From: an uncultured Clostridia bacterium
Lineage (GTDB): Bacteria; Bacillota; Clostridia; TANB77; CAG-508
Direction of reading: 5' to 3'
Assembly (NCBI GenBank): GCA_934153805.1
Contig: CAKPFO010000004.1
Span: 1,554-65,553 of the forward strand
Length of the DNA stretch: 64,000 nucleotides
The translations under genes were made by a program, and so were the position numbers. This document shows positions 12,224 through 12,426 of the stretch, piece after piece. Below the pieces are notes generated by a model. That model had not been told where the DNA came from. It made no database searches and was given only the letters and a program-made list of their open reading frames with translations. Every line of letters starts with the position of its first letter. Positions within the stretch are counted from its first letter, which is position 1.

Positions 12224-12426
12224 GGCAAATCTATAATTTTATAATACATTTTTTGTCTCCTCGTTCGAGCTAAATTATCTAGAAATTCTAATATAAATTT
12301 GACGGGACCCTTTCATTTTTTTAGTCAAAAAATGAACATTCCCCGTAAAATTTATATAAGAATTGCTACAATAATTTCCTCTCAATATGTCGACTGCAAA
12401 ATATATTATAAAATTATAGATTTGCC
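12224..12426 (+). repeat. long imperfect palindromic intergenic element, copy 1 (second copy at 60215..60410)
   Basis: A core of about 150 nt is about 95% identical to the copy at 60242-60391, apart from a 12-nt loop indel. The internal stem of about 23 bp is AATTCTAATATAAATTTGACGGG / CCCGTAAAATTTATATAAGAATT. The locus-specific outer 29-bp inverted repeat has one mismatch. Confidence 0.8.

What the first reader, a model, noticed from the sequence alone, without database searches (positions are those of the whole stretch)
12224..12426. Novel-looking 150-nt conserved core embedded in long, locus-specific perfect palindromes (copy 1 of 2)
A core of about 150 nt (12250-12408) recurs at 60242-60391 with only a few substitutions and one 12-nt loop indel (TTTTTTTAGTCAAAAA versus ATAA).

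The core folds on paper into a long hairpin. The central stem is AATTCTAATATAAATTT(G/T)ACGGG paired with CCCGTAAAATTTATATAAGAATT. Next to it is an asymmetric internal region, CTCCTCGTT(C/T)GAGC opposite CCTCTCAATA(T/C)GTCGAC, that is conserved but not complementary.

The sequences immediately outside the core are completely different at the two loci. Yet at each locus they are inverted repeats of each other: 29 bp with one mismatch here, and 31 bp perfect at copy 2. Two readings fit:
- The element inserts into the centre of pre-existing palindromes such as terminator hairpins. Both copies lie directly after a stop codon (pdaA, aspS paralog 2).
- The outer stem is maintained by selection or intrastrand repair, which would be covariation-type support for a structured RNA or DNA.

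I do not recognise it as a known MITE, IS end or RNA family.
Basis: seen in the sequence. Interest (0 to 1): 0.7.

Follow-up and report, generated by a model that had tools for sequence, protein, structure and literature searches.

The report
Flipping mini repeat element inside palindromes
A ~165-bp non-coding, hairpin-shaped repeat in an uncultured human-gut Clostridia species sits exactly at the centre of short, site-specific palindromes and occurs in either orientation at the same site in different strains, so it behaves like a small mobile DNA element rather than an RNA gene.

Summary
Two copies (12224-12426 and 60215-60410) share a ~165-bp near-palindromic element. Each lies between locus-specific inverted repeats.

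Each copy has three layers:
- an outer arm of 13-15 nt, unique to the locus;
- a 16-nt terminal inverted repeat shared by all copies (TTTTATAATATATTTT);
- a ~134-145-nt asymmetric core.

At least ten further copies turned up in a related strain's metagenome assembly. Every copy with both flanks known follows the same rule. Contigs break or turn chimeric at the element.

Three loci (pdaA-yabP, aspS-mnmA, upstream of secG) were compared across strains. At all three, the core is found in both orientations between unchanged flanks: 35 forward, 8 inverted. Both arms change in concert. Two alleles have lost the element by deletion.

There is no match in Rfam, phage, plasmid, viral or GTDB-representative collections. 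There is no covariation inside the core, no terminator signal, no promoter signal above chance, and no coding capacity.

Best reading: a new MITE-like element that inserts at the dyad of pre-existing loopless palindromes, which are common in this genome, and then flips passively through its ~30-bp perfect inverted repeats.

Not excluded: the arms are made by the element itself, or the flipping is a programmed switch. The transposase and an untouched empty site were not found.

The parts
12224..12236 (.). Copy 1, left locus-specific palindrome arm (GGCAAATCTATAA)
   Evidence: Perfect reverse complement of 12414-12426. Still present in the element-less allele L029.
12237..12252 (+). Copy 1, left terminal inverted repeat of the element (TTTTATAATACATTTT; one C mismatch)
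   Evidence: Shared by all copies. The inversion breakpoints lie within it.
12253..12397 (+). Copy 1, asymmetric invertible core. It holds the conserved non-complementary blocks GTCTCCTCGTTCGAGC and CCTCTCAATATGTCGAC and the central 23-bp stem.
   Evidence: Found reverse-complemented between identical flanks in L030, L058, L060 and L061. nhmmer scores ~180 bits forward against ~48 bits reverse.
12314..12334 (+). Copy 1, apical stem-loop (CATTTTTTTAGTCAAAAAATG). This is the variable hairpin tip that carries the 12-nt indel relative to copy 2.
   Evidence: Alignments A1 and A3. Three tip variants occur among copies and strains.
12398..12413 (+). Copy 1, right terminal inverted repeat (AAAATATATTATAAAA)
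12414..12426 (.). Copy 1, right locus-specific palindrome arm (TTATAGATTTGCC)
   Evidence: Strain variants change this arm alone or both arms together.
60215..60229 (.). Copy 2, left locus-specific palindrome arm (TTAGCATTGAACATA)
60230..60245 (+). Copy 2, left terminal inverted repeat (TTTTTTAATATATTTT). It carries an A>T change matched by T>A in the right repeat.
   Evidence: (columns 29/198).
60246..60379 (+). Copy 2, asymmetric invertible core (short-tip variant)
   Evidence: Reverse-complemented between identical flanks in L019 and L020.
60380..60395 (+). Copy 2, right terminal inverted repeat (AAAATATATTAAAAAA)
60396..60410 (.). Copy 2, right locus-specific palindrome arm (TATGTTCAATGCTAA)
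2577..2634 (.). Unoccupied loopless perfect palindrome (28-nt arms) between convergent genes. It is of the structural class proposed as the target.
46029..46057 (.). Unoccupied perfect palindrome (14-nt arms, 1-nt centre)
54384..54408 (.). Unoccupied perfect palindrome (12-nt arms, 1-nt centre). The centre base is T in 6 strains and A in 4.
61844..61879 (.). Unoccupied perfect palindrome (18-nt arms, no spacer) after the 79-aa gene

Best explanation
The element is a non-autonomous, MITE-like mobile DNA element of ~165 bp. It consists of 16-nt terminal inverted repeats around a near-palindromic but asymmetric core. So far it is seen in one uncultured, 29%-GC human-gut Clostridia species.

It inserts at, or within a base or two of, the dyad axis of pre-existing short AT-rich perfect palindromes in intergenic DNA, with little or no target duplication. 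After insertion, the two halves of the target palindrome extend the element's own terminal repeats into ~30-bp perfect inverted repeats. This is why the flanks look locus-specific yet complementary.

Those inverted repeats then drive two secondary processes:
- Inversion of the core in place (flip/flop), by recombination or replication template switching between the arms. This also keeps the arms identical.
- Occasional loss, by hairpin-stimulated slippage or larger deletions.

Shown:
- the repeat family and its three-layer anatomy;
- the rule that every locus has its own arms;
- orientation polymorphism at 3 of 3 loci;
- concerted arm changes;
- deletion alleles;
- the abundance of unoccupied palindromes of the same type.

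Inferred:
- mobility through a transposase supplied in trans;
- that the palindromes pre-existed;
- that the flipping is passive.
For: Family and anatomy:
- 2 copies in the window.
- At least 10 more on contigs of similar ~5x coverage in sample ERZ827452.
- Contigs end inside the element or cross it chimerically. The left flank of L008 matches the right flank of L011, and the left flank of L016 matches the right flank of L018b.
- All 7 loci with both flanks known have their own arms abutting the shared 16-nt repeat, perfect except for one mismatch at L013. Six loci have 12-15-nt arms; L013 has 18 nt.

Mobility and non-RNA nature:
- No Rfam family matches.
- No covariation in the core.
- No terminator-like site, and promoter-like sites no more frequent than in shuffled sequence.
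- Always intergenic, in tail-head, head-head and tail-tail contexts.

Pre-existing targets:
- 7 unoccupied perfect palindromes (arms of 11 nt or more, spacer of 3 nt or less) in 128 kb, 4 of them in the window. My estimate of the chance expectation for 12-nt arms in the 64-kb window is ~0.1.
- A related species has a loopless 15-nt-arm palindrome 8 nt after aspS, where copy 2's arms lie.

Flipping:
- W1: 12 forward, 4 inverted.
- W2: 14 forward, 2 inverted.
- secG locus: 9 forward, 2 inverted.
- The flanks are identical in the two orientations. Inverted alleles come from different samples and different assemblers.
- In one sample, W1 is inverted while W2 is forward (L030 and L033).
- The centre base of the unoccupied palindrome at 54384-54408 is T in 6 strains and A in 4. 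A centre flip would produce exactly this.

Concerted arms:
- Matched C>T / G>A changes in L030.
- A matched 1-nt deletion in both repeats in L033, L036 and L040.
- Matched A>T / T>A changes at W2.

Loss:
- L029 equals a deletion between two TATAA repeats and is nested among filled strains.
- L021 lacks the whole hairpin.

Precedent: IS1630 targets palindromic sequences of variable length and sequence (title and descriptions cited in PMC2853133 and PMC3317919). IS elements that insert into REP palindromes are described in PMC1525189.
Against: - No transposase or autonomous partner with the same ends was found. The only transposase-like gene in the window (PDDEXK_2, 36999-37625) has unrelated flanks.
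- No clear direct target-site duplication.
- No untouched empty site was recovered.
- The arms are suspiciously uniform (12-15 nt at six of seven loci) and abut the repeats with no loop remnants.
- The T/A run at the element ends varies from 3 to 6 nt but is always symmetric within a copy.
- One copy sits in a divergent promoter region, where a terminator hairpin is not expected.
- The sister lineage shows no clear palindrome upstream of secG, although that alignment is ambiguous.
- The arm at a dnaE-proximal copy (L016 right flank) is 12/13 identical to copy 1's arm, and the similarity ends exactly at the arm's end. This suggests arms can sometimes travel with the element.
- Strain counts are not independent samples.
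Confidence: 0.55

Rival explanations
1. The element makes its own palindromic flanks. It integrates as a snap-back, hairpin-shaped single strand. Its paired 3' end is then extended along the adjoining target strand for ~12-15 nt before ligation. This produces an inverted, not direct, duplication of one flank. Flip/flop would follow from hairpin transfer, as at parvovirus termini.
For: - The arms fall in a narrow size range (12-15 nt at six of seven loci), are perfect apart from one mismatch at L013, and abut the terminal repeats without loop remnants.
- The T/A runs at the junctions vary in length but are symmetric.
- One copy lies in a divergent promoter region.
- The sister lineage lacks both arms upstream of secG under the most natural alignment.
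- The L021 allele lacks both arms.
- The only 'empty' allele carrying the palindrome is best explained as a secondary deletion, so it does not show what the site looked like before insertion.
Against: - Unoccupied loopless perfect palindromes with arms of the same length are common in this genome.
- A related species has such a palindrome at the same position after aspS.
- I know of no precedent for inverted target duplication in bacterial transposition.
- The outgroup alignments are too diverged to be decisive.
Confidence: 0.15
2. The copies are a family of programmed invertons, meaning mobile phase-variation switches. A dedicated site-specific recombinase would recognise the shared 16-nt inverted repeats and flip the asymmetric core. 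This would change the transcription or mRNA fate of the adjacent gene.
For: - Both orientations occur at 3 of 3 loci.
- The inverted repeats are shared among all loci, as in recombinase-specific inverton groups. Multi-copy inverton groups linked to tyrosine recombinases are reported in gut Clostridia (PMC11892184).
- Many copies lie 20-65 nt upstream of a gene start.
Against: - The neighbouring genes are housekeeping genes (mnmA, secG, dnaE-like, yabP), not surface functions.
- Promoter-like sites are no more frequent than in shuffles, and no terminator-like site was found, in the orientation present in the window. The inverted alleles were not scanned.
- The core is nearly palindromic, so flipping changes little.
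- Pfam annotation of most window ORFs of 150 aa or more found no recombinase (and the gene tables).
- The centre base of a plain palindrome also appears to flip, which suggests a general process.
- The orientation ratio (~80:20) fits rare events as well as it fits switching.
Confidence: 0.12
3. It is a structured RNA, either a 3'UTR or intercistronic element or an independent sRNA. The long outer stem would be maintained by selection, for example as an RNase III substrate or an mRNA stabiliser.
For: - Very stable predicted hairpins on both strands.
- Always intergenic, and often co-directional with the flanking genes, so it is likely to be transcribed.
- Most variable positions in the core fall in unpaired positions of the fold.
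Against: - The same locus carries either strand in different strains, so no single RNA sequence is conserved at a site.
- Only 1 of 53 pairs shows a compensatory change, and many changes break pairs.
- No Rfam match above the noise from generic long-hairpin models.
- The copies are 90-97% identical, so conservation reflects recent copying rather than selection.
- Some copies lie between divergent genes.
Confidence: 0.07
4. The orientation differences are assembly artefacts. The argument would be that de Bruijn graphs cannot orient a segment bounded by inverted repeats.
For: - The element does break and mis-join contigs.
- All the data are metagenome assemblies, and no reads were available.
Against: - The inverted repeats are only 29-32 nt, shorter than the final k-mers named in the contig records (k119-k141, and SPAdes NODE contigs), so the orientation is read-supported.
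- Inverted alleles recur in independent samples and with different assemblers.
- A Logan contig (L061) shows the left-end sequence joined directly to the right flank.
Confidence: 0.03

Closest known systems
Bacterial MITEs and small palindromic repeats (e.g. pneumococcal RUP, Neisseria Correia elements, enterobacterial ERIC, Bacillus cereus bcr1; from my own knowledge, plus the review PMC3184786 listed)
   Same: - 100-200 bp and non-coding.
- Terminal inverted repeats.
- Folds into a long hairpin.
- Tens of dispersed intergenic copies within one lineage.
- Present or absent between strains.
- Breaks assemblies.
   Different: - No recognisable direct target duplication.
- Every insertion lies at the dyad of a different palindrome.
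- The same site carries both orientations in different strains.
- No sequence similarity to any element in the collections searched.
- Parent IS unknown.
[quoted passage not shown] 1999, as cited in PMC2853133 and PMC3317919)
   Same: - AT-rich Firmicute-type host.
- The target is recognised as a symmetric inverted repeat of variable sequence rather than as a fixed sequence.
- Per my recollection of the abstract, the targets derive from terminator-like hairpins of neighbouring genes.
   Different: - IS1630 duplicates the whole 16-26-bp palindrome as a direct repeat on both sides. Here each side keeps only one half of the palindrome.
- IS1630 is a 1.4-kb autonomous IS. This element is 165 bp with no ORF.
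IS elements that insert into REP palindromes (IS1397/ISKpn1 and IS110-family elements such as ISPpu9; PMC1525189 and PMC12288879)
   Same: Insertion into extragenic palindromic hairpins.
   Different: Those targets are one conserved repeated sequence family (REP). For IS110 elements, targeting is sequence-guided. Here the target palindromes share no sequence.
REPINs mobilised by RAYT transposases (PMC3116915 and PMC3337134)
   Same: - Two inverted halves forming a long imperfect hairpin.
- Non-autonomous.
- Restricted to one lineage.
- Symmetric excision events that leave a palindrome behind, like the L029 allele.
   Different: - No REP-type GC-rich stem or GTAG motif.
- No RAYT gene seen.
- REPINs are not reported to sit inside locus-specific palindromes or to flip.
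Invertons, i.e. invertible promoter switches (e.g. the inverton groups of gut Clostridia in PMC11892184; the C. difficile RecV switches, from my own knowledge)
   Same: A 130-200-bp segment bounded by 16-30-bp inverted repeats, found in both orientations. The repeats are shared among several loci.
   Different: - The invertible interior is itself a conserved, near-palindromic repeat.
- No promoter, recombinase or surface-gene association was detected.
- The outer part of each inverted repeat is locus-specific.
Flip/flop hairpin termini of parvoviruses and poxviruses (from my own knowledge)
   Same: An imperfect palindrome whose asymmetric interior exists in two inverted-complement configurations.
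   Different: Those are the ends of linear replicons, inverted by hairpin transfer during replication. This element is internal to a bacterial chromosome. The resemblance is one of outcome only.

Membership tests
MITE (non-autonomous DNA transposon) | Short (<~300 bp) with no coding capacity | tested here: met
   ~165 bp. Only spurious ORFs run out of the element, with no RBS.
MITE (non-autonomous DNA transposon) | Terminal inverted repeats shared by all copies | tested here: met
   The 16-nt repeat TTTTATAATATATTTT / AAAATATATTATAAAA is present at every copy.
MITE (non-autonomous DNA transposon) | Multiple dispersed copies at unrelated loci | tested here: met
   2 copies in the window and at least 10 more in ERZ827452 contigs, each with unrelated flanks.
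MITE (non-autonomous DNA transposon) | Direct target-site duplication of fixed length | tested here: inconclusive
   No consistent direct repeat. The 5-nt TATAA at copy 1 is absent at copy 2. The palindromic context hides any 0-2-nt duplication.
MITE (non-autonomous DNA transposon) | Presence/absence polymorphism with recognisable empty sites | tested here: inconclusive
   Two element-less alleles (L029, L021) were found, but both look like secondary deletions. No new insertion was seen in about 20 strain loci.
MITE (non-autonomous DNA transposon) | A cognate autonomous IS with the same ends | not testable with these tools
   No complete genome of the species could be reached. There was nothing in the window or fetched loci, and the phage, plasmid, viral and GTDB scans were empty.
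REPIN/RAYT system | Two inverted REP units with a conserved 5' tetranucleotide, plus a single-copy Y1 (RAYT) transposase flanked by them | not tested
   The halves are ~75% complementary, but no REP-like GC-rich stem is present and no Y1 transposase was seen in the ORFs annotated. The whole genome was not available.
Inverton (programmed invertible switch) | Segment bounded by inverted repeats and observed in both orientations | tested here: met
   8 inverted against 35 forward alleles across 3 loci.
Inverton (programmed invertible switch) | Orientation heterogeneity within a clonal population, and dependence on a site-specific recombinase | not testable with these tools
   No reads were available. 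Pfam annotation of most window ORFs of 150 aa or more found no recombinase gene.
Inverton (programmed invertible switch) | Orientation-dependent promoter or other regulatory signal inside the segment | tested here: inconclusive
   Only the orientation present in the window was scanned. Promoter-like sites were no more frequent than in shuffles, and no terminator-like site was found. The inverted alleles were not scanned.
Any Rfam RNA family | Match at or above the family's gathering score | tested here: not met
   0 matches in the window at the gathering threshold. Only sub-threshold hits to generic long-hairpin plant miRNA models appeared, on both strands.
Intrinsic (rho-independent) terminator | GC-rich stem, short loop and a T tract | tested here: not met
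   No terminator-like site at either copy. The arms are AT-rich and are not followed by T runs.
IS1630-type palindrome targeting (IS30 family) | The whole target palindrome is duplicated as a direct repeat on both sides of the insertion | tested here: not met
   Each side carries only one arm of the palindrome.

The most novel reading that the evidence does not exclude
The element is a chromosomal 'hairpin transposon'. It would move as a snap-back single strand and manufacture its own locus-specific palindromic flanks by fold-back-primed copying of 12-15 nt of target, producing an inverted rather than direct target duplication. It would alternate between flip and flop configurations by hairpin transfer. 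This integration chemistry is not known for any bacterial mobile element.
Probability: 0.13. Interest if true: 0.85.

Novelty: new variant of a known kind. Interest (0 to 1): 0.5.

Why it matters
If the main reading holds, this is a compact natural example of a mobile element that recognises DNA shape (a palindrome dyad or extruded hairpin) rather than DNA sequence.

It also shows that any sequence placed between ~30-bp perfect inverted repeats flips on a within-species timescale in a gut anaerobe. That bears on three things:
- How MITE and REPIN-type elements choose their targets.
- How 'invertons' called from inverted repeats in metagenomes should be interpreted, since some may be passive.
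- Assembly quality, because the element breaks contigs and joins them chimerically.

The element sits 20-65 nt upstream of housekeeping genes such as mnmA and a dnaE-like gene, and about 130 nt upstream of secG. Its ~200-nt hairpin could therefore affect operon read-through or mRNA stability in an orientation-dependent way. That was not tested.

If the minority reading holds (self-made inverted target duplications), it would be a new transposition mechanism.

Tried and rejected
Searches that found nothing:
- Rfam at gathering and E-value thresholds gave only generic long-hairpin noise.
- BLASTN against plasmids and phages gave no match.
- Two exact-motif scans of viral contigs gave none.
- The single GTDB-representative scan, with an 18-mer from the left conserved block, returned only 4 chance hits in unrelated phyla. 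The host species is therefore absent from that set, or the scan missed it.

Ideas tested and dropped:
- A 15-aa minus-strand ORF behind an SD-like GGAGA at copy 1 was rejected because it has no start codon at copy 2 (reading).
- An internal forward ORF (MNIPRKIYIRIA...) was rejected. It has no RBS, runs into unrelated flanks, and shows mixed synonymous and non-synonymous changes.
- An outward hybrid promoter at the right end was rejected. Hexamer matches are poor, and the scan found no more sites than in shuffles.
- An orientation rule relative to the downstream gene was tested. It is 5:1 in co-directional contexts, but counter-examples exist (the L018b locus and L010b), so it is not significant.
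- A 5-nt TATAA target duplication holds at copy 1 only.
- A 6-nt GTAAAA repeat outside the arms at copy 2 is probably chance in AT-rich DNA.
- A link to the PDDEXK_2 (Rpn-like) gene at 36999-37625 was rejected because its flanks show no similarity to the element ends.

Outgroups for an untouched empty site were all uninformative:
- secG in the 89-90% and 94% lineages diverged too far or carries other repeats.
- The yabP 89% relative sits on a contig that starts 32 nt upstream of the gene.
- A last 20-kb multi-strain comparison found no new insertion.

Full report
**1. The observation**

- A 32-nt core motif occurs exactly twice in the window, against none in shuffles.
- Sensitive BLASTN and an nhmmer profile find no further copy, or degenerate copy, in the 64 kb.
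- The two copies align with one 12-nt indel at the hairpin tip and a few substitutions.
- The flanking inverted repeats are 29 nt at 97% complementarity and 31 nt at 100%.
- Each whole unit folds as a ~200-nt hairpin on either strand, with z-scores of -12 to -18.

The window has 29% GC. Exact-protein look-ups place it in human-gut metagenome assemblies, including Hadza samples. The nearest MnmA outside the species is 83% identical and is labelled only 'Clostridia bacterium'.

**2. More copies, and the anatomy**

Nothing similar is in Rfam, plasmids, phages or viral contigs. The single scan of GTDB representatives returned only chance hits.

The single metagenome scan, using a 19-mer from the right conserved block, returned 12 loci. 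Ten of them come from one sample (ERZ827452) on contigs of similar ~5x coverage, which points to one related genome about 97-98% identical to the window.

Lining up all copies shows three layers:
- an outer arm, unique to each locus: 12-15 nt at six of the seven loci with both flanks known, 18 nt at L013;
- a 16-nt terminal inverted repeat shared by all copies (TTTTATAATATATTTT / AAAATATATTATAAAA), whose terminal T/A run varies from 3 to 6 nt but is always symmetric within a copy;
- a 134-145-nt core, about 75% self-complementary, that contains conserved non-complementary blocks.

Several points follow from the assembly data:
- Seven loci with both flanks known all obey the 'own arms' rule.
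- Two contigs (L008, L016) have a left flank whose partner is the right flank of a different contig (L011, L018b). These are chimeras formed through the repeat.
- Several contigs end inside the element.
- All copies are intergenic, and their contexts include tail-head, head-head (upstream of secG) and tail-tail arrangements.

**3. Strain comparisons**

Exact-protein look-ups of flanking genes gave the same three loci from many samples.

| Locus | Forward | Inverted | Element lost |
|---|---|---|---|
| Copy 2 (aspS-mnmA) | 14 | 2 (L019, L020) | L021 |
| Copy 1 (pdaA-yabP) | 12 | 4 (L030, L058, L060, L061) | L029 |
| Upstream of secG | 9 | 2 (L043, L045) | none |

- At copy 2, the inverted alleles have the core reverse-complemented between unchanged flanks.
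- L021 lacks the whole hairpin plus about 15 nt on each side. It carries 'CT' in their place.
- At the secG locus, L043 (inverted) and L044 (forward) have the same flank type.
- nhmmer separates the two orientations cleanly, at about 180 bits against about 48 bits.
- In one sample, copy 1 is inverted while copy 2 is forward (L030 and L033).
- Inverted alleles come from different samples and from different assemblers. Their final k-mers exceed the ~30-nt repeats, so I regard the flips as real. Reads were not available to confirm this.

The arms and terminal repeats change in concert:
- C>T on the left matched by G>A on the right (L030).
- A 1-nt deletion in both repeats (L033, L036, L040).
- A>T matched by T>A at copy 2.
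- One-sided intermediates also exist (L027, L059).

**4. The question of the empty site**

L029 reads GGCAAATCTATAA-AA-TTATAGATTTGC. It therefore keeps a palindrome without the element.

At first sight this proves insertion into a pre-existing palindrome. Two facts weaken that conclusion:
- L029 is closest to filled strains, both forward (L059) and inverted (L058), so loss is the more parsimonious explanation.
- Its sequence is exactly what a deletion between the two 5-nt TATAA repeats would give. One repeat is at the end of the left arm and the other lies inside the right terminal repeat. This is the classic hairpin-assisted slippage. The central AA would then be a remnant of the element.

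Similar symmetric excisions that leave palindromes behind are described for REPINs (PMC3337134).

Outgroups were too diverged or too short to settle the matter.

Independent support for pre-existing targets:
- The window and the related-strain loci hold 7 unoccupied perfect palindromes (arms of 11 nt or more, spacer of 3 nt or less) in 128 kb. Four are in the window, far more than chance predicts.
- These palindromes are conserved among strains.
- A related species without the element has a loopless 15-nt-arm palindrome 8 nt after the aspS stop. Copy 2's arms begin 12 nt after that stop.

Points against:
- The arm length is narrow and uniform.
- There are no loop remnants between arm and terminal repeat.
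- One copy lies in a promoter-region context.
- One arm (the dnaE-proximal copy, L016 right flank) is 12/13 identical to copy 1's arm, and the similarity ends exactly at the arm boundary.

**5. What it is not**

- Inside the core, only 1 of 53 predicted pairs shows a compensatory change and many changes break pairs. The copies are simply young, at 90-97% identity.
- Because a given locus carries either strand, no single RNA is conserved at a site.
- There is no terminator-like site, and promoter-like sites are no more frequent than in shuffled sequence.
- No credible ORF is present.
- No recombinase or transposase lies near either copy. The only transposase-like gene in the window (PDDEXK_2, 36999-37625) has unrelated flanks.

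**6. Mechanism proposed**

A transposase supplied in trans (inferred; not found) recognises the 16-nt terminal repeats and probably the conserved asymmetric subterminal blocks. It inserts the element at the dyad of short perfect palindromes. The likely reason is that these extrude as hairpins or cruciforms, or present a symmetric target. IS1630 is a precedent for palindrome targeting that does not depend on sequence, and several IS elements insert into REP hairpins.

The split target arms then prolong the terminal repeats to about 30 bp. These perfect repeats, about 134 bp apart, permit inversion of the core by recombination or replication template switching. That process also homogenises the arms. 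They also permit slippage deletions.

The single centre base of an unoccupied palindrome (54384-54408) is T in 6 strains and A in 4. This is exactly what a centre flip would produce, and it suggests flipping is a general property of perfect palindromes in this organism rather than a function of the element.

**7. Verdict**

This is a previously undescribed MITE-like repeat family with two unusual properties: it occupies palindrome dyads without an evident target duplication, and it shows flip/flop polymorphism.

I rate it a new variant of a known kind, of moderate interest. Three readings remain open:
- that the element manufactures its own inverted flanks (about 0.13-0.15);
- that flipping is a programmed switch (about 0.12);
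- that it acts as a structured RNA (about 0.07).

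Noticed in passing
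window 36999-37625 (gene probably starts near 36770); microsatellite at 36733-36765: A PD-(D/E)XK 'transposase' (PF12784, Rpn/YhgA-like) gene is preceded by an (AAGAAAG)n microsatellite. Genes of the same family occupy a strain-variable region near the secG locus in L046-L048 and L052.
   Followed up: partly
window 2577-2634, 46029-46057, 54384-54408, 61844-61879: Loopless perfect palindromes (12-28-nt arms, 0-2-nt centre) lie in intergenic regions next to gene 3' ends. The one at 54384-54408 has centre base T in 6 strains and A in 4, as a centre flip would give.
   Followed up: partly
L010 6698-6716: A solo terminal-repeat-like remnant (TTTTATAATATATGTTTTC, 18/19 match to the element's left end) lies 12 nt left of the arm of a full copy. 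It may be the relic of an earlier insertion at the same spot.
   Followed up: no
L016 4108-4120 (right flank of the copy upstream of a dnaE-like gene): The arm GTCAAATCTATAA is 12/13 identical to copy 1's arm, and 5 nt of the terminal repeat are missing. Similarity stops exactly at the arm end. An arm may have moved together with the element. This is unexplained.
   Followed up: partly
L021 180-200 (Logan SRR19415682), equivalent to window 60199-60423: In this allele the whole hairpin and about 15 nt on each side are replaced by 'CT'. This gives AspS a TGA stop and leaves a 13-nt aspS-mnmA spacer. The contig starts with Illumina adapter sequence.
   Followed up: partly
window 11398-12015 and 11996-12205: The polysaccharide deacetylase upstream of copy 1 is split into two overlapping ORFs (205 and 69 aa) in the window and in the eleven strain loci whose gene tables cover it (L024-L032, L058, L059). 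This is a conserved frameshift or two genes.
   Followed up: no
window 2638-4395 (-), 54406-55851 (-), 58449-60203 (+): There are three class-II Asp/Asn-type tRNA synthetase genes in 64 kb. Two of them have the GAD insertion domain typical of AspS.
   Followed up: no
window 6975-9978: An agr-like quorum-sensing locus: AgrB (6975-7607), a histidine kinase (7902-9248, minus strand) and a LytTR response regulator (9220-9978, minus strand). A HipA_C kinase gene lies at 10343-11203, and it is absent in some strains (L027, L028).
   Followed up: no
window 28044-36416: A cohesin-domain ORF is followed by a 2554-aa ORF built of Fn3/Ig-like repeats with a ~552-nt internal DNA periodicity. It is probably a large surface protein.
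   Followed up: no
L077 777-836, equivalent to window 52136: A 58-nt insertion unrelated to the element lies in the mfd-SpoU methylase spacer of one strain.
   Followed up: no
L065-L069, upstream of secG: A lineage with 94%-identical SecG carries a different, GC-rich repeat (TGCCAGTTCCGCCACATCGGC...) at which contigs end. This is another repeat family, at the position corresponding to the element.
   Followed up: no
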